From the NCBI GenBank assembly GCA_043826565.1, contig JBDRPX010000023.1, positions 5,758 to 69,757 on the forward strand: a stretch of 64,000 bases of DNA. The letters run 5' to 3'. Under the pieces are notes generated by a model, which saw only the letters and a program-made list of their open reading frames with translations, was not told where the DNA came from and did not search any database. Source of the DNA: Candidatus Omnitrophota bacterium. GTDB lineage: Bacteria > Omnitrophota > Gorgyraeia > B26-G9. Within the stretch, counting starts at the first letter, position 1. Each line of letters opens with the position of its first letter. Both the position numbers and the translations under genes were made by a program. Positions 12,186-47,070 of the stretch are shown here, in pieces.

Positions 12186-13380
12186 GTAAACTTTTCTTCG
12201 TTTTTTTTATCCTTTTAATATCTTCTTTTTTTATTATTATTTTCCTTAATTTTTTTAAGAAATTATAAATTCCTGCCTTTTTAATTATTCCCTTTAAAAT
12301 CATTTTCCAAATAATCCCAAATCCAAGCACTTTAGATGAAACTGATAGGCTTTTTATGTCATTGCGAAAGATTACTAATCTATAATACAATGGGCACTTT
12401 TTTGTCCAAAGCTGTTTCCACTCATAAAATGGCCCTAAAAAATCATACCTGGTTATTCGACCTGTCTTAAAAATATATTCCAATGTATTTTTTCTAAGCA
12501 ATATTCCCGGGGAATACTTTACGAATTCCGGGTCATAGCCGATTTTCATAGCAAATATTTCATCCCTGAACTCAATTGCTATTTCAAATGCGATCTTACG
12601 ATTATTTAGCTCCAGTAAATATATCCTTAACCAATTATTTTTATATGCTGTTTTTAAATAATCAAAATAAAAATTCTTTATATTTTCCTTGCTTATTACG
12701 GCTGTCCCGGCATCCCCTTTCCAAGCCAAAGACTCAAGCCTAAAACAATCATTAATTATTGCTTCAATATTTTCAGCTTCACTAATAACACTAAATTTTA
12801 ATTCTCCAAGTTTTGCTATTTTCTTTTCTTTTCTTTTTACCGCTCTGGTTAATTCGCGGCTGCGCGCATTCCAATAGGCCTCCCACGTTTCATTAACATC
12901 AATAAACGGGGAACTAAAACTTTCTTCTCCACTAAAAAGCGAATAGTTCTTCCTATGGCCTACTATTGAATGCGCTCTATTTAAAAATTGTGAACTCTGC
13001 GGCAAAGCGTCAAAATCAATATGTATAATTTTATTTTGTTCCATATAATCCAACAGGCACTTTATTACTTCATCCATTTCCTTTCCTGCAACTATATCAA
13101 AAAAAGGAGTATGGTTATTTTGCATCGCGCTTAAGTAAAAATAGTTTTCTCCTAAAAAATCAGCTTTTCTCTTTATCAGAGGTGTAATGCCCTGAATTCT
13201 ACCCTTATCGCTCATAACAAGGATCAATACATCGACTGACTTGCCGAAATTTTTCCACCAATTAAAGAAAAACTCATAAGTTAAAAATGGAGAATGACTT
13301 TCGTTTCTAGAGTGAAAATCATTCCAAACATCTTCAGTTTTTTTAAAATCTTCTAAATTTTTAATTTCCTGGATTATCAT
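12175..13380 (-). CDS. FemAB-like / CelD-like GNAT acyltransferase (PF13480-type, copy 1)
   Basis: 401 aa. The N-terminus (WNDFHSRNESHSPFLTYEFFFNWWKNFGK...VLILVMSDKGRIQGITPLIKRK) is typical of BioF2-like/FemAB-related proteins of PEP-CTERM EPS loci. A paralog lies at 14680-15789. Confidence 0.65.
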   Translation of the reverse strand: MIIQEIKNLEDFKKTEDVWNDFHSRNESHSPFLTYEFFFNWWKNFGKSVDVLILVMSDKGRIQGITPLIKRKADFLGENYFYLSAMQNNHTPFFDIVAGKEMDEVIKCLLDYMEQNKIIHIDFDALPQSSQFLNRAHSIVGHRKNYSLFSGEESFSSPFIDVNETWEAYWNARSRELTRAVKRKEKKIAKLGELKFSVISEAENIEAIINDCFRLESLAWKGDAGTAVISKENIKNFYFDYLKTAYKNNWLRIYLLELNNRKIAFEIAIEFRDEIFAMKIGYDPEFVKYSPGILLRKNTLEYIFKTGRITRYDFLGPFYEWKQLWTKKCPLYYRLVIFRNDIKSLSVSSKVLGFGIIWKMILKGIIKKAGIYNFLKKLRKIIIKKEDIKRIKKTKKSLHER

Positions 13381-13462
13381 TAAAAACCTATTATTTAATT
13401 TTAAATTTTCTATATGTATCCTTCCTAAAAGGAAGTACCAATACCTGAGCCTTTACTTTCTT

Positions 13463-14668
13463 TTACTGTACCTTTTGCAACCATTTTATTTTTTTAGCCC
13501 CTAAACACAGCGCCTGATAAATCATAATTAAAAAAGGCTTAATATCAAATATATTAAAATAAGCAAAGCCTTTTTTAAGAAAAATAGCCTTCCTGAAAAT
13601 TTTATTTTTTCTAAAATCCTTTATTCCATGTTTATAAATATATTTAAGGCAATAATCTTCATTTATCCATATAACCTTTTTTCTCTTGTGGTTCCCCGCA
13701 TAACTACTTTCTCCGATCATCTCGCAGTAATATTCAAAAGGCATATTTATCCCTTGAAGCAAAGCAATCGCTGACTGCAAATTTGACCGACCTACCGTAG
13801 GCTCTGTAATTTTAAACTCCCCGGTTCTATCATCTTTTTTAAACTCAGCAGAACCCAGCCCTCTATATTGCACTTTATCAAATAATTCCACGCTCATTTT
13901 TTTAATAATATCTAAATCAACACTTTCCGCTACACAAGTGCTTCCTGTGCCTGGCAACCATTGCAAAAGTTTTCTCCCGGTGAAATATGTTTTTAATTTT
14001 GAATCTGCGCCGTAGTACATTAGGCAAAAATAAACATTTGAATCATCGCCTGGTATCCACTCCTGCACAATTAAATCATTGCAGTATTTCCTCTTTTCCT
14101 TTAGCAAAACAAACAATTCTTCCTTTTTATTCACGAAATACGCTTTATTCCCCTCAAACCTGTGTTCCCAAGCATGCGTCTTATAACTGGGTTTCACAAT
14201 ACAAGGAAACTGAAAATCATTGATAATCTTTGAGAGTGATTCTATCTCCTTAAAAATAACACTCCTTGGAACTTTTAATTTTTCTTTCTCAGCAAACTTA
14301 GCAAATTTTGTTTTTTCCATTAACATTTCAACAATATCTGCCTCTGGCAAACTAAATTTATAGTATTTTAATAATTCTTTCCTGTTTTTTGAAGCAATCT
14401 GCACATTTTCATCCCCTGTTAAAAAAAGAACTGGCTTCTTGCTTTCCCTTTTTGCGAAACTAATTAGCGTCTCAACTAAAAATTTATCATCATTTATATC
14501 CTGGCAATTTTCAACTTGGCAAAGTCGCGTATAAGCGCCCGGGATATTTCGGTCTGACTCTACCCCAATCACCTTAACCCCCTTATTAACTAAGGAACGG
14601 ATGATCCCAAGACTAGTCGGATACAAACCAATAACTACCGCTTTAAAATCGCTTGCTATTTTCTTCAT
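13463..14668 (-). CDS. ATP-grasp domain protein (copy 2)
   Basis: 401 aa. Motifs CIVKPSY, IVQEWIPGDDS, FTGRKLLQWLP, GSAEFKK and ITEPTVGR match. It is a divergent paralog of 10986-12185. Confidence 0.6.
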   Translation of the reverse strand: MKKIASDFKAVVIGLYPTSLGIIRSLVNKGVKVIGVESDRNIPGAYTRLCQVENCQDINDDKFLVETLISFAKRESKKPVLFLTGDENVQIASKNRKELLKYYKFSLPEADIVEMLMEKTKFAKFAEKEKLKVPRSVIFKEIESLSKIINDFQFPCIVKPSYKTHAWEHRFEGNKAYFVNKKEELFVLLKEKRKYCNDLIVQEWIPGDDSNVYFCLMYYGADSKLKTYFTGRKLLQWLPGTGSTCVAESVDLDIIKKMSVELFDKVQYRGLGSAEFKKDDRTGEFKITEPTVGRSNLQSAIALLQGINMPFEYYCEMIGESSYAGNHKRKKVIWINEDYCLKYIYKHGIKDFRKNKIFRKAIFLKKGFAYFNIFDIKPFLIMIYQALCLGAKKIKWLQKVQ

Positions 14669-14679
14669 TGGAGATATCT

Positions 14680-15789
14680 TTACCTTTTAATTTTTTCTTT
14701 AATTTTCCGAAAAATACAAAAAAGAGCATATCTAAGCTTGTTTTTTAAAATTCTAATTGTTATTATATCCCGTGTTACAGTTGCCCATTCCTTACAATGC
14801 CTTTTATTCTCTCCTTTTAAAAAATCATATTCTGCAGCATTTCCCTCAACCGCTTTTTGTATTGAATACCCTCTTAATATATTTCCAACCCCTAACTTAG
14901 GGTAGCACTCCAGATCAAGTCCAGCCTGATAAAACAACACTTTCCCCTTATAAATGAGATCATAAAAAGCAGCAACTGGCTTTTTATTTACGTCCAGGAA
15001 GATAAGCCTTACTTGTTTTTTATCAAATAAGTTTCTCATAACTTTCCCATGAAACTGCTTAAATTTCTCACTTCTAAAACACCCTTGTTCCCCCTCAGCA
15101 CTCCATCTTTTTTCATGAAGATCAATAAAAATAGAAAACGCCATAGATAAGTCTTCTTTTTTTTCTATAGTTCTCACCTCTACTTGGGCCATACTACTTA
15201 ACCGTTTTCTATCTCGCTTAAGTTTATATCTAAAATTACTGCTTAATCCAGTTACTAATTCATCCCATGTCTTGGGAAGTTCAATATAATAAGCAACCCC
15301 ATCTTTTTCACATTTATTACTTACTCCTGAATTCGTTAGCTGTTGTCTCAAAATCACAGTATTTATATTTTCAGCAAGTAACTCTTTTAAAACTATTTCA
15401 TCCCATGTTTTATTCACTTTAAAATAATCTACTAAACATCCTATAACTTCTTTCTCTTTACCCTTCTTTATAATAAAATTTAAATACTCTGAACATATTT
15501 CATCTCGTTCTTCTTCACCAGAAGCGATAAATTCTAATCTATTATAATTTAAAAGCCTAAAATAACAAATTTTCCTCAAAAGAAGCGGTGCAATACCTAT
15601 GATTTCTTCATTTTCTTTGACTAAAAGAATAAAAAGTTCCCTCTTTTCCTTAAAAACTTCCCACCAGGAATAAAGCCATTCCCATGTTAGAAAAATATTA
15701 TCGTTGTTGCTTTGGCTTAAAAGTTCATTCCATTGATCTTTTAGGCCTATAAAACCATCATCTGTTGTTATCTTATGAATTTTAACCAT
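14680..15789 (-). CDS. FemAB-like / CelD-like GNAT acyltransferase (PF13480-type, copy 2)
   Basis: 369 aa. WNELLSQSNNDNIFLTWEWLYSWWEVFKEKRELFILLVKENEEIIGIAPLLLRK aligns with copy 1 at roughly 35% identity. Confidence 0.65.
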   Translation of the reverse strand: MVKIHKITTDDGFIGLKDQWNELLSQSNNDNIFLTWEWLYSWWEVFKEKRELFILLVKENEEIIGIAPLLLRKICYFRLLNYNRLEFIASGEEERDEICSEYLNFIIKKGKEKEVIGCLVDYFKVNKTWDEIVLKELLAENINTVILRQQLTNSGVSNKCEKDGVAYYIELPKTWDELVTGLSSNFRYKLKRDRKRLSSMAQVEVRTIEKKEDLSMAFSIFIDLHEKRWSAEGEQGCFRSEKFKQFHGKVMRNLFDKKQVRLIFLDVNKKPVAAFYDLIYKGKVLFYQAGLDLECYPKLGVGNILRGYSIQKAVEGNAAEYDFLKGENKRHCKEWATVTRDIITIRILKNKLRYALFCIFRKIKEKIKR

Positions 15790-15923: not shown

Positions 15924-17948
15924 CTACAAACTCCCTTCAAACATCATTATATTAATATTCTCACTATCTTTCCGAAGAGCCTGGCATTCTTTAAGACGAT
16001 TGTCAAAATTTCTGATAAAATGATTATCCAGCAATAAAGTACTGATAATTCCCACGATAGCCCGGTTATGATGCGCGCTAATAAGGCTGCCTTTTGCATT
16101 TTTACATTTATTTACTAGTTTAGCTACTGCCTGCGGGTCAAAATAACCGGTTTCAGAAATATTTCTTTCCGACAAAATCTCCTCAAGATAAGCCACTGCA
16201 TCTGCGCTCTTATTGTTTGGGGAGAAAAAGCTTAAACTATCCGGAGCCCGGTACCCCTGTTTTTTCCGGTTAATTATCGGTTCCGGCACATAACTCGCGG
16301 CGATTTTTTTAAGAATATATTTTTCATTCATAACTTTCAGCCTTAATGCCGGAGGAATTTTTGCGCAAAACTCCATTACCCGGTGATCCAAGAACGGAAA
16401 TCTTCCTTCTACGGAATTAGCCATCATCATCCTGTCTCCCTGAGATGAAAGCAAATAACCGGAAAGCAAAGTTTGAACTTCGAGATATTGAGCTTGGGAT
16501 AGACTATTCCATTTTTTAAATTCATCCGGGATCGTCTTGCTCAATCCGGCAATACAGTCAAGCCCGGAGATATCCGCTTTTAACTGCGAAGAAAAAAACT
16601 GTTTTATTTGGGATGTTGCCATCCAGCGGGGAATATGAGAATAGCAAAATTTATCCGTTTCCGGCAAATGCACATTATAAAACGCTTCCAGAAAAAGAGA
16701 TGCTTTTTTTGGCCAATTCGGCAAATAATGATAAAGTTTTTTCAACAGCAAAGGCCGGAGTTTCGATTCAGGATTTTGCGCCCAGAACCGGCGGATCTTC
16801 ATTTCCCGGAACAGATCATAGCCGGCCAATACCTCATCCGCTCCCTCTCCGGTCAAAACTACTTTAATATTGTTTTCCCTGACCAATTTAGATAATAACA
16901 TTAACGGAGCCGGAGCTGTCCGCATTATCGGCTTTTCCGTATGCCAGAGTATATCCGGAATGATCTTCCCTATATCAGAATATTGACAAGTTACCTGGCG
17001 ATGATCAGTATGCAGCTGCTGGAGCATTTGCTGTTGATAACCACTCTCATCATAATCTTTATCCGCAAAACTTACGGAAAAAGTCTTCAGGTCATTATTA
17101 AAGTGTTTTTTCACTATAGATGTGATCAAGGAAGAATCCAGGCCGCCGCTTAAATATGACGCTACCGGCACATCCGCGCGCAAACGGATTCGCGTGGAAT
17201 CTTTAAGCAATTCCAATAACTCTTCGGCATACTGCTGCTCACTATATTTTTTGTTCTGCGTTGATCCTTCAGGAAAGCCCCAATCCCAATACCGTTCAAC
17301 ATATATATTACCTTCTTTGGCGATCATATAATGTGCCGGAGGCAGCTCCTGTATATTTTTGAATACTGTCTGCGGCGGTATAGTTGTCCAGAATGTAAAA
17401 ATTTCATCCAGTCCCCGGGGATCAAGCTCCCGCGGCACCCGGTTATCCGCAAAAATTGCTTTGATCTCTGAGGCAAAGATCAAAGATCCGTCGATAATTG
17501 TATAAAAAAGCGGACGTATCCCCACCCGGTCACGCGCCATAAACAGCTGTCTTTTTTTAGTGTCCCATATCGCCAAAGCAAATTGACCGTTTAATTCCTG
17601 CAAACATGCCGGGCCTTTTTCCTCATATAAATGGACAATAACTTCCGTATCTGTATTTGTATAAAAACAGTGTCCTTTCTTTATTAACTGTTCCCTTAAT
17701 TCCGGATAGTTAAAAATTTCACCGTTATAGACTATCCATATTGATCTATCTTCATTATGGATCGGCTGTTGTCCTCCGGCAATATCAATGATGCTCAAAC
17801 GGGCATGAGCTAACCCTACCTTACTATCCTTATATATACCGCATTCATCCGGACCCCGATGATGCATAAGTAAGATCATCTTTTTCAGAACATCAGTATC
17901 AATATTATGATCTTTGGTAAGATTTAAATTTCCGCTTATTCCGCACAT
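15924..17948 (-). CDS. Asparagine synthase (glutamine-hydrolysing) family amidotransferase (AsnB-like)
   Basis: 674 aa. N-terminal MCGISG supplies the class-II glutamine amidotransferase catalytic Cys2. The PP-loop SYLSGGLDSS lies in the synthetase domain. Confidence 0.9.
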   Translation of the reverse strand: MCGISGNLNLTKDHNIDTDVLKKMILLMHHRGPDECGIYKDSKVGLAHARLSIIDIAGGQQPIHNEDRSIWIVYNGEIFNYPELREQLIKKGHCFYTNTDTEVIVHLYEEKGPACLQELNGQFALAIWDTKKRQLFMARDRVGIRPLFYTIIDGSLIFASEIKAIFADNRVPRELDPRGLDEIFTFWTTIPPQTVFKNIQELPPAHYMIAKEGNIYVERYWDWGFPEGSTQNKKYSEQQYAEELLELLKDSTRIRLRADVPVASYLSGGLDSSLITSIVKKHFNNDLKTFSVSFADKDYDESGYQQQMLQQLHTDHRQVTCQYSDIGKIIPDILWHTEKPIMRTAPAPLMLLSKLVRENNIKVVLTGEGADEVLAGYDLFREMKIRRFWAQNPESKLRPLLLKKLYHYLPNWPKKASLFLEAFYNVHLPETDKFCYSHIPRWMATSQIKQFFSSQLKADISGLDCIAGLSKTIPDEFKKWNSLSQAQYLEVQTLLSGYLLSSQGDRMMMANSVEGRFPFLDHRVMEFCAKIPPALRLKVMNEKYILKKIAASYVPEPIINRKKQGYRAPDSLSFFSPNNKSADAVAYLEEILSERNISETGYFDPQAVAKLVNKCKNAKGSLISAHHNRAIVGIISTLLLDNHFIRNFDNRLKECQALRKDSENINIMMFEGSL

Positions 17949-17998
17949 GTGTTCCTTAGAGTTACGCGTTAACGCGTTTTCGCGTTTGCGTGTTTAAT
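17949..17998. repeat. GC-rich repeat flanking four-helix-bundle gene 1 (contains perfect palindrome ACGCGTTAACGCGT)
   Basis: gagttACGCGTTAACGCGTtttcgcgtttgcgtg is an island of CGCG units in an AT-rich genome. It is imperfectly complementary to 18385-18432 and encodes the C-terminal tail of the four-helix-bundle ORF. Confidence 0.6.
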
Positions 17999-18381
17999 TT
18001 TGCACTTTTTAGATATTTTTTTAAAGCTGTTATCATTCTTCTAGTTTTTTCCGACATTTCATATAAAGAATCAAACTCTGGCTTTTTAATATATTTCTGA
18101 TCTAGAGCAACATATAAATTACACTGAACTTCTGAGGCAGATCTTCTCGCATAAGTTAAAAACCTTATAAACTCCGCATTAGAATCGCTATCAAAACCTT
18201 CTGCAATATTATTCATTATTGAAACTGCAGCTCTCTGGATTTGTCCTGTCAAACCAAAATCTTTGCTAAAATCGCCAGTTTTACTTATATTATAAATTTC
18301 TTTTACTAATATACGCGCTTCTTGCCAAACATTAAGGTCTTCAAATCTCTTTACCCCCATTATAAACTCTCCAACACGCAA
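17962..18381 (-). CDS. Four helix bundle protein (TIGR02436 family; formerly '23S rRNA intervening sequence protein'), copy 1
   Basis: Family hallmarks are FEDLNVWQEA, SIMNNIAEGF and FLTYARRSASEVQCNLYVA. The likely true start is the internal MGVKRFEDL (~18360), giving about 132 aa. Confidence 0.8.
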   Translation of the reverse strand: MRVGEFIMGVKRFEDLNVWQEARILVKEIYNISKTGDFSKDFGLTGQIQRAAVSIMNNIAEGFDSDSNAEFIRFLTYARRSASEVQCNLYVALDQKYIKKPEFDSLYEMSEKTRRMITALKKYLKSAKLNTQTRKRVNA

Positions 18382-18432
18382 ACTCCCAACGCGCTAACCC
18401 GTAACTCGTTAACTCGTTAACCCAAGTTTCTT
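18382..18432. repeat. GC-rich repeat flanking four-helix-bundle gene 1 (right arm; tandem AACTCGTTA x2)
   Basis: cacgcaaactcccaacgcgctaacccgtaactcgttaactcgttaaccc. Its reverse complement pairs imperfectly with 17955-17995. Confidence 0.55.
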
Positions 18433-19407
18433 TTTCGCAAAATCAACTATTTCCGCACTTCCCGGCTCATTAATCTTCGCTAAACCAAGTTCTCGGGACA
18501 TAACTCCGCTTCTAACCATTTCCGCGATCTCAAACGCGTATGGATGAAACCCATACTTATCAATATGCACATGGTTAGCAAAAGAATTTAAAAGACAATT
18601 TGTTGAATTTTTATCCACATCTTGCGGGGCACACCACCCAAGCTCTCCGATTTTCTCAACGATCTTTTCTTCATCATAATCCATAAAAGCCAGCGGACTA
18701 ACATTATAAGGGAACAGGTTCTTGTCCTTAAACTGCTCCGCACTTAAAAAATACTTATTCATATCATCACCGGCAATTTCCTGCATTGGTTTTCTTAATA
18801 ATTCCTGTGTCGTTTTAAAAAGCTCCGGGTTTATTTTCATAATCGAGGATCGAATCGGAGCCTGTCCCGGAGACCAACCCCAGGCCATTATCGGAATTCT
18901 TTTTTCCAACGAAATCTTTAAAAATATAAATTTAACCAATCCGATACAAGAGGTACACATCGTACTGGCCCGCTCCAGGGTCTTCGGAGAATACATTGGA
19001 TGAGTTGCCGCATGCTGAAATATTTTCTTTAATAAAGTAAAATCCGGTTTAAAAACAAGGCTATCCACCCCGATATTCTCCGTAACAGTCCGGATATTTT
19101 TAAACGCCTGCTCGGAAATAAACCCATTATCCAAAACCAAAGCCAGGACTTTAAGTTTAAACACCTCTTTCATCATATATAAAGTATATGTGCTATCCTT
19201 ACCTCCGGAATAAGATACGGTGCAGTCATAATCGCCATTACCCTGCACCTGTTTTAATAATTCCTTAAATTTATTAAAATACAAAGCTTTGTCCTCATTC
19301 AGTTTCTCTGCGCCTTTAAAATTCAGACAAAAGTTACAAACCCCCTTATCATCAAAGGTTATTCCGGGAAAACTTTCCGGCAATACACATTTTATACACC
19401 GTTTCAT
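18409..19407 (-). CDS. N-acetyl sugar amidotransferase (WbuX/PseA-like PP-loop ATP pyrophosphatase)
   Basis: 332 aa. The N-terminus carries a CxxC...CxxC cluster (CIKCVLPESFPGITFDDKGVCNFC). The PP-loop VSYSGGKDST follows. This architecture matches the LPS-biosynthesis amidotransferase family (TIGR03573-like). Confidence 0.7.
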   Translation of the reverse strand: MKRCIKCVLPESFPGITFDDKGVCNFCLNFKGAEKLNEDKALYFNKFKELLKQVQGNGDYDCTVSYSGGKDSTYTLYMMKEVFKLKVLALVLDNGFISEQAFKNIRTVTENIGVDSLVFKPDFTLLKKIFQHAATHPMYSPKTLERASTMCTSCIGLVKFIFLKISLEKRIPIMAWGWSPGQAPIRSSIMKINPELFKTTQELLRKPMQEIAGDDMNKYFLSAEQFKDKNLFPYNVSPLAFMDYDEEKIVEKIGELGWCAPQDVDKNSTNCLLNSFANHVHIDKYGFHPYAFEIAEMVRSGVMSRELGLAKINEPGSAEIVDFAKKKLGLTS

Positions 19408-19466: not shown

Positions 19467-19877
19467 TCATTTTAGATCCTTAGCTACTGTTTTGCGAAAA
19501 TTATATAGTTTTTTGCCTAGTTTCTCTAACTCTTGAATCCAATTTTTATATTTGATCTCATTACTAAAAGACTTTGTATCAAATAATAATTCTAAATGTT
19601 CCTTTGTTTCGTCACAAGAAGCTATTGCATAAGTCAAATAGCGTATAAACTCTTGTTGATACGATTTTCTCCCAAACCCCTCAACTATAGTAGCAACTAT
19701 TGATTTGGATGATCTTCTAATTTGACTACCTTGCTCATACATCTCAAATTTAGGTAAATCCTGCAGCGTCATCTCATGCATCTTTACCGCTAAATCATGA
19801 GCCAATCTATAAATTTCTAAGTCTTTATAACTTTGCATTTTTCCTGCGTCCTGAGTCCTGTAGCCTGAGGCTTTCAT
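19467..19877 (-). CDS. Four helix bundle protein (TIGR02436 family), copy 2
   Basis: 136 aa. YKDLEIYRLAHDLAVKMH...VATIVEGFGRKSYQQEFIRYLTYAIASCDE is the second common sequence type of this family. Confidence 0.8.
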   Translation of the reverse strand: MKASGYRTQDAGKMQSYKDLEIYRLAHDLAVKMHEMTLQDLPKFEMYEQGSQIRRSSKSIVATIVEGFGRKSYQQEFIRYLTYAIASCDETKEHLELLFDTKSFSNEIKYKNWIQELEKLGKKLYNFRKTVAKDLK

Positions 19878-19925
19878 ACCTTTCAGCTTGCATCCTGCGG
19901 CTTGCGGCCTGCAGCCAGGAGAGCT
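19855..19925. repeat. GC-rich repeat flanking four-helix-bundle gene 2 (right arm; overlaps the 3' end of the ligase gene)
   Basis: cctgagtcctgtagcctgagg...cagcttgcatcctgcggcttgcggcctgcagcc. Repeated cctg/gcctg units encode the last ~10 codons (AAGRKPQDAS) of the AMP-ligase. Confidence 0.55.
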
Positions 19926-21454
19926 TTCAACTGCTCTCGCTTTATTTTTCCACTCGCCGTTTTTGGCAGAGATTGCACCATCGCAACTTTTTTCGGCATT
20001 TTAAAAGCGGCTAGGTTCTTTTTACAAAAAATAAGAATATCTTTTTCCGTAACATTCACATCGTCAAGCACAACAAAAAGCTTTATCGCTTCGCCAAGTA
20101 TTTCATCAGGGATACCGACTACCGCACACTCAGCAATTCCTGGCAATTGAGAAACAACTTCTTCTAATTCTAATGGACTGATCCTGTTGGCACCGCTTTT
20201 AATCATATCCTTTTTACGGCTAATCAGATAAATAAACCCATCCGCGTCAATACGCGCAAGATCTCCGGTAAACAAATCCCCCTCACGTAAAACCCCCTTG
20301 GTTTGTTCCGGATCATCCCAATATCCCTGCATAATATTTTTTCCGCGAGCAACAATTTCGCCGATTTCTCCGACTTCCACCGGTTCTCCCGTTTCTCTAA
20401 GCACATCAAGCTGTACTCCGGGAATAGCTTTGCCGATAGAACCAGCTTTTTCCGGAAAATCATCAGGAGAAAGAAAACTCAAACGAGCAGAAGCTTCTGT
20501 CTGCCCATACATCACATAAAACTTTATCTCCGGGATTATTTGCCGGAACTCTTTTATCAAGCCCGCAGACATCGCTCCTCCGGCCTGGGTAACATAACGC
20601 AATTTAGGAAATTGATATTTTCGTATTGCTGATTTCTTTAAAAATATATTAAAATGAGTCGGGACTCCGGCAAAACCGGTAACTTCTTCCGTAGCCATCG
20701 TATCTAAAATCACATTAGGAAATACAAAACGGTTGTCGATAATAAGAGTTCCCCCGGCTCTTATATGCGTAGTTAATAAAGAATTGCCATAGGAATAGTA
20801 AAACGGCAATACGACCATAATTTTGTCTTCTGCTGTAAGCCTCAGATAGCTGATAATAGACTCTGCATTTTCCGCTAAATTTTCATGCGAAAGCATTACT
20901 CCCTTAGGTTTGCCTGTAGTCCCGGAGGTATATATAATCATCGCCAGATCGCTGGCGCTTAGCTGAGGGCTGATGGCTAATGGCTCATAGTTTTCACTAT
21001 AATTAATATCATCTATTTGTAATGCAATAATATCCTGATTGATTAAAACTAAAGCTTCTTCTACAACTTTTTTGTGTTTATTGTCAGTAACTAGTACCCT
21101 AGGGGTGCAATCAGTCAAAAGCAATGCTAACTCTCGGGAAACAAGCTGACTATTTAAAGCTACAACACCCCCCCCGATTTTTAAAATCCCAAAGTAGGCC
21201 ACCAGATAATCAATACTATTATCCAAAAACAAAACTACCCGGTCTCCTTTAGATACCCCCTGGTCTCTTAAATACATAGCCAAGACATCAGACCATGCGC
21301 TAAGCTGCGCATAAGTACAGCTTGATTTCTGATGAACTGCCGCGATTTTATCCGGATATCGCTGAGTACTTTCTCGTAAAAATCCATGAATCATCATATT
21401 AACACCAGACTCCGAGTTATGAATTATTGATTTTAGATTGTATAAAAACCTCAA
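19883..21454 (-). CDS. AMP-dependent synthetase/ligase (acyl- or aminoacyl-AMP forming; adenylation enzyme)
   Basis: 523 aa. The AMP-binding signature IIYTSGTTGKPKGV is present. The C-terminal PKTASGKIKR is the conserved A10 lysine motif. Confidence 0.85.
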   Translation of the reverse strand: MRFLYNLKSIIHNSESGVNMMIHGFLRESTQRYPDKIAAVHQKSSCTYAQLSAWSDVLAMYLRDQGVSKGDRVVLFLDNSIDYLVAYFGILKIGGGVVALNSQLVSRELALLLTDCTPRVLVTDNKHKKVVEEALVLINQDIIALQIDDINYSENYEPLAISPQLSASDLAMIIYTSGTTGKPKGVMLSHENLAENAESIISYLRLTAEDKIMVVLPFYYSYGNSLLTTHIRAGGTLIIDNRFVFPNVILDTMATEEVTGFAGVPTHFNIFLKKSAIRKYQFPKLRYVTQAGGAMSAGLIKEFRQIIPEIKFYVMYGQTEASARLSFLSPDDFPEKAGSIGKAIPGVQLDVLRETGEPVEVGEIGEIVARGKNIMQGYWDDPEQTKGVLREGDLFTGDLARIDADGFIYLISRKKDMIKSGANRISPLELEEVVSQLPGIAECAVVGIPDEILGEAIKLFVVLDDVNVTEKDILIFCKKNLAAFKMPKKVAMVQSLPKTASGKIKREQLKALLAAGRKPQDAS

Positions 21455-21671
21455 TATTCTTCAGCGAATCAAGATTATCCGGTGTCAATTCTTCATCCTC
21501 AACTTTGATTGTGAAGGTTTCCTGTATAAAATCAACGAGTTCCATAATCCCCGTAGAATCAATAATCCCCTGTTCTAAGAAAGAATCCTCATCGTTTATA
21601 CTTCTATCCTCCGCGCCCATTAAAAAACTACTCTTTATAAATTGCCTAACTTTGTCTTTAACATCCATCAC
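21417..21671 (-). CDS. Acyl/aminoacyl carrier protein (DltC/ACP-like)
   Basis: 84 aa. GIIDSTGIMELVDFIQETF has a Ser in a helix-II-like context (phosphopantetheine site). It overlaps the ligase start by 38 nt, which indicates translational coupling. Confidence 0.6.
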   Translation of the reverse strand: MMDVKDKVRQFIKSSFLMGAEDRSINDEDSFLEQGIIDSTGIMELVDFIQETFTIKVEDEELTPDNLDSLKNIEVFIQSKINNS

Positions 21672-22253: not shown

Positions 22254-23255
22254 TTAATAATAAAGCTTAAGCAGATCTTTTTTTACCTTTTCCATCTGGA
22301 AAAAATCATATTTATCATCCTGGTTACCGATAACCGGAACCCACGACATCAAGGCGATCATTAACAACTGCGGCACTACTCTATATTTATTTAAATAGTC
22401 CAGCGCCACTTTACGCGCTTTATATTTCTCTTTGTTTTTAATTAAATATTTTGCCCAAAAAAGATAACTGTTTTCTATTTGCCCTTTAAGACAGTCCTCA
22501 TTTTTTTTCTCATTATCCTCCAGAGAATTCAATAAGTGCTCAAAAGAAGCGATTCTATTCTCAACACTACGGCTTATATAGTAAGAGACTTTATACGCGT
22601 CAAAAAACCGGCTAACCAAAACCCTGTTGATACAGCCTACTTGCGCGTGTTTAGCCATATTAAAAAGTAATTCTATATCCTCATAACCATGTGCTTGTTC
22701 TGGAAAGGGCCCGTAGAAAGAATACGATTGATTTCTAATAAGCATTGTTGAAAACAGTTTAAACCTGCTCATGATCAGGTATCTCTGCCCTTGCTCAATC
22801 ACAAAAGCCTCTTGATTTTTCCCTCCCCGAAAAAAATCATTCATCTGGAAAAATGACGAATTTACCAAGCCGTTCTTATCAACAATATCAAAATCACAGC
22901 AAACACCGAAAGCGGTCATATTTCTTTCTAAAAACTTAACTTTTTCTTCTAACACCCCCGGATGCCAGATATCACCGGCCGCGAGGATGGAAAAATATTT
23001 CCCTTCAGTAAGTTTCAAGGTATTGTTCAATATTTTTCCTTTAGAAACCCCTTTTTGCTGGATAACAAGTTTAATCCTGTCACGGTATGCTTCAATAAAT
23101 TGGCTTAACTCTTCGGTAATAGTGTTGACAATCAAAAAAATCTCAACGTTTTTGTATGTCTGATGTAAAACACTATTAAAAGTTTGCGCAAGATTAAGGA
23201 CATCTTCCCGAGATACAATAAGAATACTGACTTTTTCTACCTGATAAAAACTCAT
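22254..23255 (-). CDS. GT2-like (GT-A fold) protein with degenerate catalytic motifs
   Basis: 333 aa. The N-terminal VSILIVSRED...SVLHQTYKNVEIFLIVN is GT2-like. The usual DDGS is missing. The canonical DSDDIWHP 'DXD' segment reads AAGDIWHPGVLEEKV. Confidence 0.45.
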   Translation of the reverse strand: MSFYQVEKVSILIVSREDVLNLAQTFNSVLHQTYKNVEIFLIVNTITEELSQFIEAYRDRIKLVIQQKGVSKGKILNNTLKLTEGKYFSILAAGDIWHPGVLEEKVKFLERNMTAFGVCCDFDIVDKNGLVNSSFFQMNDFFRGGKNQEAFVIEQGQRYLIMSRFKLFSTMLIRNQSYSFYGPFPEQAHGYEDIELLFNMAKHAQVGCINRVLVSRFFDAYKVSYYISRSVENRIASFEHLLNSLEDNEKKNEDCLKGQIENSYLFWAKYLIKNKEKYKARKVALDYLNKYRVVPQLLMIALMSWVPVIGNQDDKYDFFQMEKVKKDLLKLYY

Positions 23256-24205
23256 AAAATTTCCTTAAACCAATCATAAGTAACCTCCAAACCCTTATCA
23301 AAATTTATATCAGGTGTATAATTCATCAGCTGTTTAGCTTTATCAATATTGGCATGGCTTTTAAAAACATCTCCCATGCGGATCGGCAGAAAAGCCGGTT
23401 CAATTGCTTTGCCGGCAAGAGCATTCACAACTTCAACTATCCTTAAAACCGTAACACTATCACCACAGGCCACATTAAATACTTCCTTAGAAATTCCGGG
23501 AACCGTCGCGGCCAAAATATTTGCTTTAACTACGTTCTTTACAAAAGTGAAATCGCGTGACTGCTTGCCGTTTCCAAATATTGGAGGCTGTTTATCTTTT
23601 AAAATACACGCGATAAACTTTGGAATAACTACTGCGTATTCATCATCTAAAGCTTGCCGGGGACCAAAAACATTAAAATAACGCAAGGCTACTGTTTCCA
23701 CTCCGAAATTTTCACTAAAAATACGGCAATAATATTCTCCGGCCAGCTTAGACAATGCATAGGGAGAAATCAGCAATGGGTAATGCGTTTCCGTCTGCGG
23801 AAACTTATCCGTGTCCCCATACACTGAACTTGAGGATGCCAGCACTAGTCTTTTTACGCCGCATTGCTTAGCTGCCCTTAACAAATTAACCGTACCATCA
23901 ATGTTAACTCTATTATACTCATAAGGATTTTTCATCGATTTAGGAACACTTCTTAATGCCGCCTGATGCAAAACATAATCAACCCCCTCACAAGCTTTAA
24001 CACAAGCCTCATAATCGCAAATATCACCTCTAATCAGCGAATAGCGATTAGCGTCTAGCGAATAGTCCGCTACAAACGCGAGATTTTCCTCTTTACCGCT
24101 AAAGAAATTATCCAAAACAACAACAGACTCTCCCTTTTTTAATAATTCTTCCACAATATGGGAACCGATAAATCCCGCCCCGCCGGTAACTAAATATTTG
24201 GACAT
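23252..24205 (-). CDS. NAD-dependent epimerase/dehydratase (UDP-sugar 4-epimerase, WbpP/Cap1J-like extended SDR)
   Basis: 317 aa. The Rossmann motif VTGGAGFIGSH is present. The catalytic YALSKLAGE (YxxxK) also matches. Confidence 0.85.
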   Translation of the reverse strand: MSKYLVTGGAGFIGSHIVEELLKKGESVVVLDNFFSGKEENLAFVADYSLDANRYSLIRGDICDYEACVKACEGVDYVLHQAALRSVPKSMKNPYEYNRVNIDGTVNLLRAAKQCGVKRLVLASSSSVYGDTDKFPQTETHYPLLISPYALSKLAGEYYCRIFSENFGVETVALRYFNVFGPRQALDDEYAVVIPKFIACILKDKQPPIFGNGKQSRDFTFVKNVVKANILAATVPGISKEVFNVACGDSVTVLRIVEVVNALAGKAIEPAFLPIRMGDVFKSHANIDKAKQLMNYTPDINFDKGLEVTYDWFKEIL

Positions 24206-24303
24206 TTTCGTACTCCTTTGTTAGATTGTTAGCCAGTTAGCCAGTTGGCCAGTTGCCAGTCAAGCCGGTTGGCCCGTAAGCTAGTCAAGCCGGTTAAAAA
24301 AAT
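24206..24303. repeat. GC-rich repeat flanking four-helix-bundle gene 3 (AGCCAGT heptamer units; CAAGCCGGTT x2)
   Basis: gttagccagttagccagttggccagttgccagtcaagccggttggcccgtaagctagtcaagccggtt. The segment agttggccagt is the exact reverse complement of actggccaact in the right arm. Confidence 0.6.
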
Positions 24304-24666
24304 TTAATTTGCTTTTAAATATCTAATAAAACCACTTATTAATTTTCTAGTCTCTTCTGTTTGCAAATAAATCTCTTGAAACAATTCTTTATCTACATAA
24401 TTAAGATCTAAAGCTATATACATAATGCATTGCACTTCTGAACATGACCTTTTGGAGTATGAAAGAAATCTACAAAACTCTGTTTTGCTTGAACTATCAA
24501 ACCCCTCTGCTATATTATTCATTATTGACACAGAAGCCCTTTGAATCTGATCTCTTAATCCCCAATCCCTTGCAAATTCTTTTTGAGAAGTTATGTTGTA
24601 TATCTTTTTGTTCAGTTGCCTAGCCATTTTCCAGGATTCAATGTCTTCAAATCTATTTATTTTCAT
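24304..24666 (-). CDS. Four helix bundle protein (TIGR02436 family), copy 3
   Basis: 120 aa. FEDIESWKMARQL, SIMNNIAEGF and FLSYSKRSCSEVQCIMYIA match the family. Confidence 0.8.
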   Translation of the reverse strand: MKINRFEDIESWKMARQLNKKIYNITSQKEFARDWGLRDQIQRASVSIMNNIAEGFDSSSKTEFCRFLSYSKRSCSEVQCIMYIALDLNYVDKELFQEIYLQTEETRKLISGFIRYLKAN

Positions 24667-24720
24667 CTCAAACCCAACTAGTCAACCGGTCAACCGGCTT
24701 ACTGGCCAACTCGATAACTT
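24667..24720. repeat. Repeat flanking four-helix-bundle gene 3 (right arm)
   Basis: caactagtcaaccggtcaaccggcttactggccaactcgataac carries the palindrome aaccggtt-like units. It is complementary to parts of 24206-24303. Confidence 0.55.
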
Positions 24721-26046
24721 TTATAAGCGCCAGTACAAAATTTCAGAATTATTAAAAGTTTTGGAATCAAACATCCCTTTGACATCAACTAATACCCCAG
24801 TAGTATTCTTCCCGCTAATCATATGTTTTTTTAATGCTGAAAGCGTAAAATCTTTCTTAAAAATATCGTGGTTAACCGCGGCGACAATCGCGTCAACTTT
24901 CAGATTCTTGTTATACTTCTTCATCTCTATGCCGTATTCATGTTTTACAGCCTGCGGATCCGCAAGAGGATCAGACACGACAACATCAATCGAATATTCT
25001 TTCAATTCGTTTATAATATCAATAACCCGCGAATTGCGAATGTCTGATATGTTTTCTTTGAAGGTTATCCCGAGAATAAGGACCTTGGCTTTTTTTACCG
25101 TCTTATTCGCCTCGATCAGCAGTTTAACTGTCTGCTCGGCAATATACTTACCCATCCCGTCGTTTATCCTTCTCCCGGCAAGTATTACCTGCGGATGATA
25201 TCCTAAAACTTCGGCCTTAAAAGTAAGATAATACGGATCTACTCCGATGCAATGCCCGCCCACAAGTCCGGGGAACATCTTAATAAAGTTCCATTTAGTT
25301 GCCGCGGCTTTAAGAACCGACAGGGTATCAATACCCATCTCATGGAAAATAATAGCTAATTCATTCATCAAAGCTATATTCAGATCTCTTTGCGTATTTT
25401 CTATAACTTTCGCCGCCTCAGCAACCTTAATCGATTTTGCTTTAAAAACACCCGCCTTAACGATTAACGCATAGGTCTGCGCCACTTCATTCAAAGTTTG
25501 CTGATCACAACCTGAGACTACTTTTATTATGCTCGTAACATCATGTTCTTTATCCCCGGGATTGATCCGTTCCGGAGAATACCCGGCCTTAAAATCCTTT
25601 TTATATTTAAGCCCGGAATATTTTTCCAGGATCGGAACACAAACATCTTCAGTAACTCCCGGATAAACAGTAGATTCATAAACAATGATACTGCCTTTTG
25701 CAAGATTCTTCCCGACTATCTCAGAAGCACTTTCCAAACAGGAAAGATCCGGCTGTTTGTTTTTTGTTATGGGCGTAGGAACAGTAATAATTATAAAATT
25801 AGCTTCTTTTATCTTTTTAGGATCACTTGTAATTTTAAGCAATTTAGCCGCTTTAAGTTCACCCGTAGCTGTTTCATTATTAGTATCCTCAAATCTTTTC
25901 AGATCTTTTACCCGTTTTAAGTTCAGATCAAATCCGATCGTCTTGACAATCTTACCAAATGCCACCGCCAGCGGCAATCCCACATACCCCAGGCCGATTA
26001 CCGCACATTTGACCTTTTTCTTTTTAATCTTATCAACCAATCTCAT
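24721..26046 (-). CDS. Nucleotide-sugar dehydrogenase (UDP-glucose/GDP-mannose dehydrogenase family; UDP-GlcNAc/ManNAc dehydrogenase-like)
   Basis: 441 aa. The N-terminal Rossmann motif is VKCAVIGLGYVGLPLAVAF. The central GGHCIGVDPYY carries the catalytic Cys. Confidence 0.85.
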   Translation of the reverse strand: MRLVDKIKKKKVKCAVIGLGYVGLPLAVAFGKIVKTIGFDLNLKRVKDLKRFEDTNNETATGELKAAKLLKITSDPKKIKEANFIIITVPTPITKNKQPDLSCLESASEIVGKNLAKGSIIVYESTVYPGVTEDVCVPILEKYSGLKYKKDFKAGYSPERINPGDKEHDVTSIIKVVSGCDQQTLNEVAQTYALIVKAGVFKAKSIKVAEAAKVIENTQRDLNIALMNELAIIFHEMGIDTLSVLKAAATKWNFIKMFPGLVGGHCIGVDPYYLTFKAEVLGYHPQVILAGRRINDGMGKYIAEQTVKLLIEANKTVKKAKVLILGITFKENISDIRNSRVIDIINELKEYSIDVVVSDPLADPQAVKHEYGIEMKKYNKNLKVDAIVAAVNHDIFKKDFTLSALKKHMISGKNTTGVLVDVKGMFDSKTFNNSEILYWRL

Positions 26047-35166: not shown

Positions 35167-35212
35167 ACCACTCTCTCTTGTTAAATTACTTAATTTTCAA
35201 TTCGCCCGTAAT

Positions 35213-36526: not shown

Positions 36527-36592
36527 TTCTGCTTATCCTTTTTATTTTTAAGAAAAATTTTATAGCAACCTATTCCCTTGATTTATCATGCC

Positions 36593-38059: not shown

Positions 38060-38066
38060 GTTTTTT

Positions 38067-47067: not shown

Positions 47068-47070
47068 TTA

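What the first reader, a model, noticed from the sequence alone, without database searches (positions are those of the whole stretch)
19883..21671. Translationally coupled adenylating ligase + small carrier protein inside the polysaccharide operon (Dlt-like logic without DltB/DltD)
A 523-aa AMP-binding enzyme overlaps by 38 nt an 84-aa ACP/DltC-like protein that has a Ser in a DSL-like context. This resembles the carrier-protein-mediated supply of an acyl or aminoacyl group in D-alanylation, or the ligase/ACP pairs of exosortase-A-type loci. No MBOAT (DltB) or DltD-like transferase is seen. The adjacent FemAB-like GNAT proteins are candidate acceptors of the carrier-bound group. Such transfer would be an unconventional donor for that family, which normally uses aminoacyl-tRNA.
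Basis: inference. Interest (0 to 1): 0.6.

Follow-up and report, generated by a model that had tools for sequence, protein, structure and literature searches.

The report
Acid-loading ligase with carrier protein
A polysaccharide gene cluster of an uncultured Omnitrophota bacterium contains a real enzyme-plus-carrier-protein pair that probably supplies a small acyl decoration to the sugar polymer; the pair belongs to a widespread, uncharacterised module and is not a Dlt-like amino-acid system.

Summary
The two genes are real and sit next to each other on the minus strand. One is an 83-aa carrier protein (21417..21668) with the phosphopantetheine serine (Ser38, GIIDSTG). The other is an ANL-type adenylating ligase (19883..21397). 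The reported 38-nt overlap comes from a longest-ORF call: all 19 close homologues start at Met20, so the genes are separated by 19 nt that contain a GGAG.

The ligase resembles acyl-CoA synthetases (MatB, oxalyl-CoA synthetase, FadD13), not DltA. It has Ser, never Asp, where amino-acid adenylating enzymes bind the alpha-amino group. Its putative acyl pocket is polar and invariant (Tyr220, Tyr222, Gln318, Arg324).

I compared about 80 dereplicated related loci:
- The carrier gene lies just upstream of the ligase in 56 of 69.
- The most constant partner is an ATP-dependent amidotransferase (AsnB or NadE-like), in 21 of 23 loci.
- Next is a NASAT-like PP-loop enzyme, in 14 of 23.
- FemAB-like GNATs occur in only 6 of 23.

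The best reading is carrier-tethered supply of a small polar acyl group, possibly amidated on the carrier, to a GalNAcA-type polysaccharide. The cargo and the final transferase are unknown. The module is a sister of the XrtA/exosortase-associated ligase family. Interest is moderate.

The parts
21417..21668 (-). Carrier protein gene (83 aa from ATG 21668; GTG 21671 is the alternative start). The phosphopantetheine-attachment Ser38 is encoded at 21555-21557.
   Evidence: PF00550 at 23.5 bits against a 20.8 cut-off. Best PDB matches are type II peptidyl carrier proteins (2my5 E 2e-8, PigG, PltL, DltC), with the serine aligned. The G[IV][IV]DS[TV]G serine is invariant in 9 related loci.
21398..21416 (-). 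A 19-nt spacer between the carrier stop (TAA 21419-21417) and the ligase ATG 21397. It contains GGAG at 21414-21411.
   Evidence: Read from the sequence. The start is fixed by the homologue alignment.
19883..21397 (-). ANL-superfamily adenylating ligase (504 aa), probably a carboxylic acid:carrier-protein ligase.
   Evidence: PF00501 and PF13193. Best NCBIfam hits are PRK06187 (427 bits, cut-off 476) and TIGR03098 (399 bits, cut-off 592), both below cut-off. PDB neighbours are MatB 4fuq, AAE3 5ie0, FadD13 and MenE. Family signature: FYYSYG, TQAGG and YGQTEAxxR.
18409..19407 (-). NASAT-like (WbuX-related) PP-loop ATP pyrophosphatase, the second most constant partner of the pair.
   Evidence: TIGR03573 at 149.5 bits over its full length, below the 203 cut-off. 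It has the CxxC..GxCxxC and SGGKDS motifs that define NASATs (PMC10607449). Best PDB hit is 8wex. It is 53-79% identical and adjacent to the ligase in 8 of 10 first loci and lies within 4 kb in 14 of 23.
15924..17948 (-). Glutamine-dependent AsnB-type amidotransferase (N-terminal Cys2 present). In relatives it is replaced by a NadE-like enzyme.
   Evidence: TIGR01536 at 534 bits, above its cut-off. TIGR03108 (XrtA amidotransferase) at 469 bits, below its 817 cut-off. AsnB or a NadE-like protein lies within 4 kb of the ligase in 21 of 23 loci.
9864..10907 (-). Tandem-GNAT (Eis-like) acyltransferase. It is the candidate final transferase that this locus shares with its closest relatives.
   Evidence: Acetyltransf_9 and Acetyltransf_17. 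Present in L081, L082, L086 and L132. The AF2 model (pLDDT 80.8) is nearest to Eis-like proteins and N-myristoyltransferases.
10986..15789 (-). Two tandem pairs of a FemAB-like Acetyltransf_6 GNAT and an ATP-grasp ligase (14680..15789 with 13463..14668; 12175..13380 with 10986..12185). This is a variable accessory module, not tied to the pair.
   Evidence: PF13480 at E 5e-22 and 2e-21; ATP-grasp/CPSase_L_D2 hits. Co-occurrence with the ligase is 6 of 23 within 4 kb.
6418..8544 (-). CE4 polysaccharide deacetylase fused to a conserved C-terminal domain with no Pfam match (about aa 335-708). It could expose the amine that gets acylated.
   Evidence: PF01522 at E 1e-25. The C-terminal domain is 50% identical to stand-alone proteins in L082, L086 and L087.
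23252..26046 (-). TviC-like epimerase (23252..24205) and TviB-like UDP-GlcNAc 6-dehydrogenase (24721..26046). Together they would supply UDP-GalNAcA.
   Evidence: NF011729 at 500 bits (cut-off 592) and NF011728 at 251 bits (cut-off 760), both below cut-off; TIGR03026 passes its cut-off.

Best explanation
The two genes encode a dedicated carboxylic-acid:carrier-protein ligase and its phosphopantetheinylated carrier. They form the core of a conserved polysaccharide-decorating module: carrier, ligase, amidotransferase (AsnB here) and a NASAT-like PP-loop enzyme.

Proposed mechanism:
1. The ligase adenylates a small polar organic acid, possibly a dicarboxylate, and thioesterifies it to the pantetheine arm on Ser38 of the carrier. 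This step is inferred from conserved adjacency and family chemistry.
2. While tethered, a free carboxylate of the cargo is amidated by the AsnB/NadE-type enzyme. The PP-loop enzyme may then process it further, to an amidine or a nitrile. This step is inferred only from co-occurrence.
3. An acyltransferase moves the group onto an amino group of the GalNAcA-type repeat unit. That amine may be exposed by the CE4 deacetylase. The transferase differs between loci. Here the tandem-GNAT protein at 9864..10907 is the best candidate by synteny, and the FemAB-like proteins are a weaker one. This step is also inferred.

The identity of the cargo is not known.
For: - Gene reality and start sites.
- Carrier serine.
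- Adjacency: the carrier lies upstream of the ligase on the same strand in 56 of 69 dereplicated loci. These loci span Omnitrophota, Elusimicrobiota, Planctomycetota, Polyangiaceae, Fibrobacteraceae and many unassigned metagenome contigs. In 52 of 58 the gap is -29 to +86 nt.
- The ligase is acyl-CoA-synthetase-like, with an intact A3 motif, A5 motif, hinge and catalytic Lys503.
- Ser221, never Asp, occupies the alpha-amino-binding position.
- The predicted pocket residues are polar and invariant in 65 members at 39-100% identity: Tyr220, Tyr222, Gln290, Gln318, Arg324. Arg324 lies one residue after the position of the oxalate-binding His319 of AtAAE3 (PMC8905533).
- AsnB or a NadE-like protein lies within 4 kb in 21 of 23 loci, and the two replace each other in the same neighbourhood. 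A UDP-sugar dehydrogenase is nearby in only 9 of 23. This ties the amidation step to the pair rather than to uronic acid synthesis.
- The NASAT-like PP-loop enzyme lies within 4 kb in 14 of 23 loci, and 32 contig lengths are shared between the two top-120 homologue lists.
- A CE4 deacetylase occurs in this locus and in several relatives.
Against: - No biochemical data exist for any member of this family.
- The closest solved relatives of the ligase all use CoA, so CoA cannot be excluded as the thiol acceptor.
- Eleven of 69 loci have no carrier gene in view. Among them is a coherent subtype (ligase, XrtA deacetylase, FemAB-like protein, DegT) that also lacks an amidotransferase.
- The structural neighbours of the GNAT model all use acyl-CoA.
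- AsnB-type enzymes are known to amidate uronic acids in O-antigens without any carrier protein (my own knowledge), and this locus makes a uronic acid.
- The pocket assignment rests on motif register, not on a structural superposition.
- The best NCBIfam hit names a long-chain fatty-acid ligase.
- The loci were retrieved through ligase motifs, so the sample is biased towards this subfamily.
Confidence: 0.45

Rival explanations
1. Dlt-like or AlmEFG-like aminoacylation. The ligase loads an amino acid onto the carrier, and the FemAB-like GNATs use the aminoacyl-carrier instead of aminoacyl-tRNA to decorate the polysaccharide.
For: By sequence the carrier is closest to aminoacyl/peptidyl carriers (2my5, PigG, PltL, DltC) and is more distant from AcpP. 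FemAB-like genes are present here and within 8 kb of the ligase in 7 of 18 loci. HfsK is a FemX-like GNAT that acts on a polysaccharide with an unknown donor (PMC5362036).
Against: The ligase lacks the alpha-amino-binding Asp: the position is Ser or Ile in all 65 members. It resembles CoA ligases, and DltA is not among its 25 best NCBIfam families. The DltC model scores 19.6 bits against a 68 cut-off. FemAB-like genes are absent from 17 of 23 loci within 4 kb, including the closest relative L081. In this window, L084 and the P0108 locus they lie beside ATP-grasp genes. They also occur next to ligases that have no carrier gene nearby.
Confidence: 0.1
2. The ligase is an ordinary acyl-CoA synthetase that feeds an acyl-CoA to the GNAT or hexapeptide acyltransferases. 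The carrier protein then serves another step or is only an alternative acceptor.
For: All close solved relatives are CoA ligases. The tandem-GNAT model resembles acyl-CoA users, namely Eis-like proteins and N-myristoyltransferases. A subtype of the family works without a nearby carrier gene (L088, L104, L107, L109).
Against: The carrier gene is immediately upstream in 81% of loci, often with overlapping or nearly abutting stop and start codons. No other enzyme able to load the carrier was seen in any of the inspected neighbourhoods.
Confidence: 0.17
3. The pair activates a fatty acid to lipidate the polysaccharide or to build a lipid anchor. N-acyl amino acid synthases linked to exosortase loci would be a parallel.
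For: The best NCBIfam hit is PRK06187, a long-chain-fatty-acid--CoA ligase (427 bits, cut-off 476). N-acyl amino acid synthases have been linked to PEP-CTERM/exosortase loci (Craig et al. 2011, seen only as a citation in PMC11631085; I did not read the paper).
Against: The score is below the family cut-off. The predicted pocket is lined by invariant Tyr, Gln and Arg rather than by hydrophobic residues. The match to MatB spans nearly equal lengths (ligase residues 25-491 against MatB 27-495), so there is no FAAL-type insertion. No condensing or other fatty-acid-processing genes are present in the locus.
Confidence: 0.1
4. The pair does supply an acyl group. However, AsnB/NadE and the NASAT-like enzyme act on the sugars (a uronamide, and an acetamidino group from an N-acetyl) and not on the tethered cargo. 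In this view the co-location only reflects a shared polymer.
For: NASATs are implicated in converting sugar N-acetyl groups to acetamidino groups (PMC10607449). AsnB-type enzymes make uronamides in O-antigens (my own knowledge). TviB/TviC-like genes are present here.
Against: The amidotransferase stays beside the carrier and ligase, sometimes between them, in loci where no uronic-acid dehydrogenase is in view (21 of 23 against 9 of 23).
Confidence: 0.18

Closest known systems
XrtA/PEP-CTERM (exosortase A) system-associated acyl-CoA ligase TIGR03098, with its neighbouring carrier protein and the amidotransferase TIGR03108
   Same: An ANL ligase in an exopolysaccharide locus, together with an AsnB-type amidotransferase. 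TIGR03098 is the second-best NCBIfam hit. Relatives of this ligase sit beside EpsH/EpsI, PEP-CTERM proteins, the XrtA deacetylase TIGR03006 and TIGR03019-like FemAB proteins.
   Different: All scores are below the family cut-offs (399 against 592; AsnB 469 against 817). No exosortase was found among the window ORFs scanned. This subfamily has its own signature (FYYSYG, TEAxxR) and additional NASAT-like and NadE-like partners. The XrtA-associated pair itself has no known function, and its composition is taken from my own knowledge of the TIGRFAMs set.
DltA/DltC D-alanylation system and the Vibrio cholerae AlmE/AlmF/AlmG system
   Same: An adenylating enzyme is encoded next to a small phosphopantetheinyl carrier, and the carrier delivers a group to a cell-envelope polymer. 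By sequence the carrier resembles type II aminoacyl carriers.
   Different: The ligase is not DltA-like and has no alpha-amino-binding Asp. There is no MBOAT (DltB), no DltD and no LpxL-type AlmG. The DltC model scores below its cut-off.
Nod factor (NodB deacetylase, then NodA acylation from the carrier NodF) and lipid A (LpxC then LpxD): N-deacetylation followed by re-acylation from an acyl-ACP (my own knowledge)
   Same: The same logic is possible here: a CE4 deacetylase, a dedicated carrier and an N-acyltransferase in one glycan pathway.
   Different: In those systems fatty acid synthase-type enzymes load the carrier, not an ANL ligase, and the cargo is a fatty acid. No NodA or LpxD homologue was identified here.
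OxyD-type amidation of a malonyl thioester to malonamyl in oxytetracycline biosynthesis, and the Vibrio cholerae O1 RfbK/RfbL carrier-ligase pair for the tetronate N-acyl group (my own knowledge)
   Same: OxyD is an AsnB homologue that acts on a thioester-bound dicarboxylate. RfbK/RfbL is a carrier-ligase pair inside an O-antigen locus that builds an unusual N-acyl substituent.
   Different: Homology beyond the superfamily level was not tested. No polyketide synthase and no RfbM/N/O-like genes are present here.
HfsK of Caulobacter crescentus, a FemX-like tandem GNAT that acts on holdfast polysaccharide (PMC5362036)
   Same: It is a tandem-GNAT, FemX-like protein in a polysaccharide pathway. 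It has been proposed to acylate amines exposed by the deacetylase HfsH, and its acyl donor is unknown.
   Different: No ligase or carrier protein is mentioned in the passages of that paper that I read. Similarity of the window proteins to HfsK was not tested.

Membership tests
ANL superfamily (class I adenylate-forming enzymes) | AMP-binding N-terminal domain plus C-terminal domain, with core motifs A3 (TSGTTGxPKG), A5 (YGxTE), A7 (TGD), the hinge and the A10 catalytic Lys | tested here: met
   PF00501 at 290.7 bits and PF13193 at 74.9 bits. YTSGTTGKPKG, YGQTEA, TGDLA, SRKKDMIKSGANRISP and PKTASGK(503) are conserved in the 20-sequence alignment, and most of these positions also in 65 family members.
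Phosphopantetheine carrier protein (PF00550) | A four-helix carrier with the attachment serine at the start of helix 2 (DSx motif) | tested here: met
   23.5 bits against a 20.8 cut-off. Ser38 aligns with the serine of 2my5, where the variant 2my6 has Ala. Actual modification of the serine cannot be tested here.
Dlt system | A DltA-type amino-acid adenylating enzyme with the alpha-amino-binding Asp in the A4 motif | tested here: not met
   Both LgrA A domains place their Asp opposite Ser221. The position is Ser in 56 and Ile in 9 of 65 members. DltA is not among the 25 best NCBIfam families.
Dlt system | A DltC equivalog | tested here: not met
   NF003464 DltC scores 19.6 bits against a 68 cut-off.
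Dlt system | DltB (MBOAT) and DltD in the same locus | tested here: not met
   Neither family appears among the window ORFs scanned against Pfam, which were nearly all of those of 140 aa or more.
XrtA-associated ligase TIGR03098 | A score at or above the curated cut-off of 592.35 bits | tested here: not met
   399.1 bits. The relative inside a genuine exosortase locus (L088) also fails, at 351.9 bits.
XrtA/PEP-CTERM exopolysaccharide system | Exosortase EpsH/XrtA and PEP-CTERM proteins in the locus | tested here: not met
   None was found among the scanned window ORFs. The relatives L087 and L088 carry Pfam-annotated EpsH/EpsI, L084 and L088 carry a PEP-CTERM protein, and several metagenome loci have BLAST matches to EpsH. 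The rest of this genome was not seen.
Fatty acyl-AMP ligases (FAAL) | An insertion of about 20 residues in the N-terminal domain that blocks the CoA-thioester conformation | tested here: not met
   The ligase (504 aa) aligns at residues 25-491 with residues 27-495 of the 503-aa MatB, so the two spans are nearly equal in length.
N-acetyl sugar amidotransferase (NASAT, WbuX; TIGR03573), for the neighbouring gene 18409..19407 | The SGGxDS PP-loop and the CxxCXn[GN]xCxxC zinc motif, plus a score at or above 203.2 bits | tested here: inconclusive
   Both motifs are present: CIKC...GVCNFC and SGGKDS (motifs as defined in PMC10607449). The score is 149.5 bits, below the cut-off.
FemABX aminoacyl-tRNA transferases, for 14680..15789 and 12175..13380 | Membership of PF02388 FemAB or TIGR03019, and use of aminoacyl-tRNA | tested here: inconclusive
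   Both proteins match only PF13480 Acetyltransf_6. There is no TIGR03019 hit at E below 1e-3 and no PDB sequence hit for the one that was searched (14680..15789). The donor substrate cannot be tested here.

The most novel reading that the evidence does not exclude
The quartet of carrier, ligase, AsnB/NadE-type amidotransferase and NASAT-like PP-loop enzyme could be a previously undescribed on-carrier pathway. A dicarboxylic acid would be tethered through one carboxylate. Two successive ATP-pyrophosphatase steps would convert the other carboxylate to a carboxamide and then to an amidine or a nitrile. The product would be a charged or otherwise unusual N-acyl decoration for exopolysaccharides in many uncultured lineages. 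A weaker variant of this reading is that FemAB-like GNATs use this carrier-bound donor instead of aminoacyl-tRNA.
Probability: 0.15. Interest if true: 0.65.

Novelty: new variant of a known kind. Interest (0 to 1): 0.38.

Why it matters
Ligase and carrier pairs in exopolysaccharide loci, including the XrtA/exosortase-associated set, have been catalogued for years, but to my knowledge none has an assigned function.

This analysis defines a distinct subfamily. At least 211 metagenomic stretches carry its motif and encode a relative of the query. It has an invariant polar pocket and a very constant amidotransferase partner. That turns a vague annotation ('acyl-CoA ligase') into a concrete experiment: load the carrier, add the amidotransferase, and watch the mass.

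If the cargo is amidated on the carrier, that would be a new way of building polysaccharide decorations. It would also help to interpret the surface chemistry of Omnitrophota and other uncultured bacteria.

If the pair only delivers an ordinary acyl group, it is a routine accessory module.

Tried and rejected
1. A genome-contig scan with the full ligase alignment used generic ANL motifs (VMYGQTEA, YTSGTTG) and returned mostly paralogues at 28-38% identity. Only L001 and L002 were usable.
2. Pfam scans of guessed ORFs in the high-GC loci L001 and L002 were mostly empty.
3. Literature searches for the gene combination found nothing that describes it: N-acetyl sugar amidotransferase with acyl carrier protein; exosortase with ligase, ACP and FemAB; acetamidino with PP-loop. 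The 2006 PEP-CTERM paper does not mention the ligase or ACP. Craig et al. 2011 is not held in the library.
4. The adjacent PDB codes 8weu and 8wev (ligases) and 8wex (NASAT) suggested a shared pathway. That was a coincidence: 8wex is a Legionella LPS enzyme.
5. The top PDB hit, LgrA, looked like similarity to an NRPS. It is only the sum of two weaker A-domain matches (133 and 143 bits).
6. The 86-aa ORF in L088 was considered as a carrier and rejected on translation and HMM search.
7. The promoter and terminator scan gave no more sites than shuffled sequence.
8. PDB sequence searches with one FemAB-like protein, one ATP-grasp protein and the GNAT gave nothing useful.
9. The ~270-aa proteins of relatives with no Pfam match also have no NCBIfam match. 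They could not be modelled because the tool rules exclude them.
Full report
**What is in the window**

All genes from about 1 kb to 33 kb lie on the minus strand and form a Wzx/Wzy-type polysaccharide locus. In the direction of transcription the genes are:
- Wza, Wzz and a tyrosine kinase;
- a TviB-like UDP-GlcNAc 6-dehydrogenase;
- a small four-helix-bundle gene;
- a TviC-like epimerase, a GT2 glycosyltransferase and a small cupin;
- the carrier protein and the ligase;
- a four-helix-bundle gene, a PP-loop enzyme and another four-helix-bundle gene;
- AsnB;
- two pairs of Acetyltransf_6 and ATP-grasp genes;
- a tandem GNAT, a DUF362 protein and a CE4 deacetylase fusion;
- an APH-like kinase, Wzx, Wzy and a GT4 glycosyltransferase.

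Identical proteins in public data come from a Candidatus Omnitrophota MAG.

**Check of the observation**

The ligase ORF and the small ORF are real genes. The ligase carries PF00501 and PF13193. The small protein passes PF00550.

The 523-aa length and the 38-nt overlap do not hold:
- In an alignment with 19 homologues at 52-69% identity, every homologue starts at the residue that aligns with Met20 of the long ORF.
- An identical database entry is 503 aa.
- The ATG at 21397 lies 19 nt after the carrier's TAA and is preceded by GGAG.

In 58 related loci the distance from the carrier stop to the ligase start runs from -29 nt upward. It is between -29 and +86 nt in 52 of them. Close coupling is therefore typical of the family, and a few members do overlap, but this window has a short spacer.

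The carrier most likely starts at ATG 21668 (83 aa). Its Ser38 sits in GIIDSTGIMELV. It aligns with the attachment serine of the solved type II carrier 2my5, where the variant 2my6 has Ala. It is invariant in nine related carriers. A second conserved motif, EDEEL.PDNLDS, marks this carrier subfamily.

**What kind of ligase**

NCBIfam places the ligase closest to PRK06187 (long-chain-fatty-acid--CoA ligase, 427 bits, cut-off 476) and to TIGR03098 (exosortase A-associated acyl-CoA ligase, 399 bits, cut-off 592). It is a member of neither.

The best single-domain matches among solved structures are malonyl-CoA synthetase MatB, oxalyl-CoA synthetase AAE3, feruloyl-CoA synthetase, FadD13 and MenE. 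The nominal top hit, LgrA, is only the sum of two weaker A-domain matches.

In those LgrA alignments the Asp that binds the alpha-amino group of amino-acid substrates falls opposite Ser221. Among 65 dereplicated full-length family members (39-100% identical to the window protein) this position is Ser or Ile, never Asp.

The match to MatB spans nearly equal lengths in the two proteins, so there is no FAAL-type insertion.

The family has an invariant signature in the segments that line the acyl pocket in other ANL enzymes:
- F218-x-Y220-x-Y222-G223;
- T289-Q-A-G-G293;
- Y316-G-Q-T-E-A321, followed by R324.

In oxalyl-CoA synthetase the oxalate-binding His lies four residues after the conserved Thr of the TE motif (PMC8905533). 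Here that position is Ala323, and the invariant Arg324 follows it.

I read this as a pocket for one specific small polar or anionic acid. This rests on motif register, not on a structural superposition.

**Comparative genomics**

Nine look-ups of homologues and a metagenome scan with a family-specific motif gave 89 loci with a ligase. After removing near-identical copies, 80 remained.

- The carrier gene lies upstream on the same strand within 3 kb in 56 of the 69 loci that have enough upstream sequence.
- The table below covers the 23 loci, the window included, with at least 4 kb on both sides of the ligase.

| Neighbour within 4 kb of the ligase | Loci (of 23) |
|---|---|
| AsnB-type or NadE-like amidotransferase | 21 |
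| Carrier protein | 19 |
| NASAT-like PP-loop enzyme | 14 |
| UDP-sugar dehydrogenase | 9 |
| FemAB-like Acetyltransf_6 | 6 |
| Hexapeptide acyltransferase | 6 |
| Tandem GNAT (Eis-like) | 3 |
| ATP-grasp | 1 |

- AsnB and the NadE-like protein replace each other in the same neighbourhood. The NadE-like protein of L081 passes NCBIfam PRK00876.
- AsnB can sit between the carrier and the ligase (L087) or directly upstream of the carrier (L001, L002, L113, L130, L156 and others).
- The PP-loop protein is 53-79% identical across the first loci, which is better conserved than the ligase. It has both motifs that define N-acetyl sugar amidotransferases (PMC10607449), but it scores below the TIGR03573 cut-off.

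The closest syntenic relative is L081, whose ligase is 69% identical. It has the cupin, carrier, ligase, four-helix-bundle gene, PP-loop enzyme, NadE-like enzyme, tandem GNAT, DUF362 protein, deacetylase, APH-like kinase and Wzx. It has no FemAB-like or ATP-grasp gene.

A separate subtype lies in true exosortase loci. It runs ligase, XrtA deacetylase (TIGR03006, which passes its cut-off), FemAB-like protein (TIGR03019-like, 220 bits against a 260 cut-off) and DegT. It has no carrier and no amidotransferase in view (L088, L104, L107, L109).

**Interpretation**

The carrier and the ligase are functionally coupled. This is the one firm inference.

The cargo is very unlikely to be an alpha-amino acid of the Dlt type. 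The near-universal amidotransferase suggests that a carboxylate linked to this pair is amidated. The link holds even where no uronic-acid dehydrogenase is nearby.

The simplest scheme is therefore a dicarboxylic cargo that is amidated while tethered. This recalls the action of the AsnB homologue OxyD on a malonyl thioester (my own knowledge). The NASAT-like enzyme might then add a second ATP-dependent nitrogen step.

This part of the scheme is inference from co-occurrence only. The alternative, that these enzymes act on the sugars, remains open.

The final transferase is not conserved across loci. It may be a tandem GNAT, a FemAB-like GNAT, a hexapeptide transferase or a pair of alpha/beta hydrolases. 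In this locus the tandem GNAT at 9864..10907 is the candidate shared with the nearest relatives. Its AlphaFold model (pLDDT 80.8) resembles Eis-like acetyltransferases and N-myristoyltransferases. All of those use acyl-CoA, which keeps the CoA-ligase rival alive.

A CE4 deacetylase in the locus fits a scheme of deacetylation followed by re-acylation. The same scheme has been proposed for HfsH and HfsK (PMC5362036). It is established for Nod factor and lipid A (my own knowledge).

- Carrier loading: supported.
- Comparison with exosortase-A loci: supported, as sister families.
- Absence of DltB and DltD: confirmed.
- Dlt-like aminoacyl chemistry: not supported.
- FemAB-like proteins as the dedicated acceptors: not supported by co-occurrence, although not excluded.
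- Translational overlap: an artefact.

The serine is conserved, so that test does not refute the model. The ligase does group with fatty-acyl/CoA-type ligases rather than with DltA. Even so, its conserved linkage to the carrier argues that it does load a carrier.

**Novelty and interest**

To my knowledge, ligase and carrier pairs in exopolysaccharide loci are catalogued but uncharacterised. This is a distinct, widespread subfamily with new constant partners (NadE-like or AsnB, and a NASAT-like enzyme). I rate it as a new variant of a known kind and of moderate interest. The value lies in a testable hypothesis, not in a demonstrated new mechanism.

Noticed in passing
window 17962..18381, 19467..19877, 24304..24666 (minus strand); also L081 11527-11883, L089 7457-7810 and 9592-9945, L102: Three paralogous four-helix-bundle genes of the '23S rRNA intervening sequence protein' type (PF05635, TIGR02436) are scattered between the operon genes. 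Related loci carry such genes at different positions, once between the carrier and the ligase (L089). They look like independently inserted small cassettes. The copy at 24304..24666 is bracketed by a 19-nt inverted repeat (24235-24253 and 24701-24719, 89% complementary). Two window copies share a 74-nt stretch at 77% nucleotide identity.
   Followed up: partly
window 10986..15789 (minus strand): There is a tandem duplication of a gene pair: a FemAB-like Acetyltransf_6 GNAT followed by an ATP-grasp ligase. Acetyltransf_6 and ATP-grasp genes also occur together in L084 and next to each other in the P0108 locus. This suggests a separate two-enzyme module, perhaps one that adds amino acids or peptides to the uronic-acid polymer. 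Neither the one GNAT nor the one ATP-grasp protein searched has a sequence relative in the PDB.
   Followed up: partly
window 6418..7542 (C-terminal ~370 aa of the 708-aa protein); L082 17215-18231, L086 13762-14838, L087 16066-17172: A conserved domain with no Pfam match is fused here to a CE4 deacetylase. In relatives it is a stand-alone protein about 50% identical to the window domain. It travels with the ligase module, together with an APH-like kinase (4962..6446) and a DUF362 protein that gave a weak match to a twin-arginine-associated family at its N-terminus (8573..9910).
   Followed up: partly
L088, L104, L107, L109 (related loci): A subtype of the same ligase family sits in true exosortase (EpsH/EpsI) loci. 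The order is ligase, XrtA polysaccharide deacetylase, FemAB-like protein, DegT aminotransferase. It has no carrier protein and no amidotransferase in view.
   Followed up: partly
L082 14604-15404, L087 12557-13372, L085 4328-5158 and 5180-5998, and many metagenome loci: A family of proteins of about 250-280 aa, with no Pfam or NCBIfam match, often follows the ligase or the PP-loop gene (within 4 kb of the ligase in 7 of 23 loci). It is absent from this window. It could be the missing transferase in those loci.
   Followed up: partly
protein P0172 (530 aa, metagenome): A homologue of the NASAT-like PP-loop protein is fused to a hexapeptide-repeat acyltransferase domain. This hints at a functional link between the PP-loop step and an acyl transfer.
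   Followed up: no
window 33682..58834 (minus strand): Upstream of the locus lie other gene sets. They include a PMT-family glycosyltransferase, two radical SAM proteins (one with a B12-binding domain), a PEP-utilising dikinase-like protein, CrtC-like and amine-oxidase-like proteins. There is also a second polysaccharide-type cluster with a Wzx-like flippase, a UbiA prenyltransferase, a polyprenyl synthetase, several GT2 glycosyltransferases and a radical SAM/SPASM protein.
   Followed up: no
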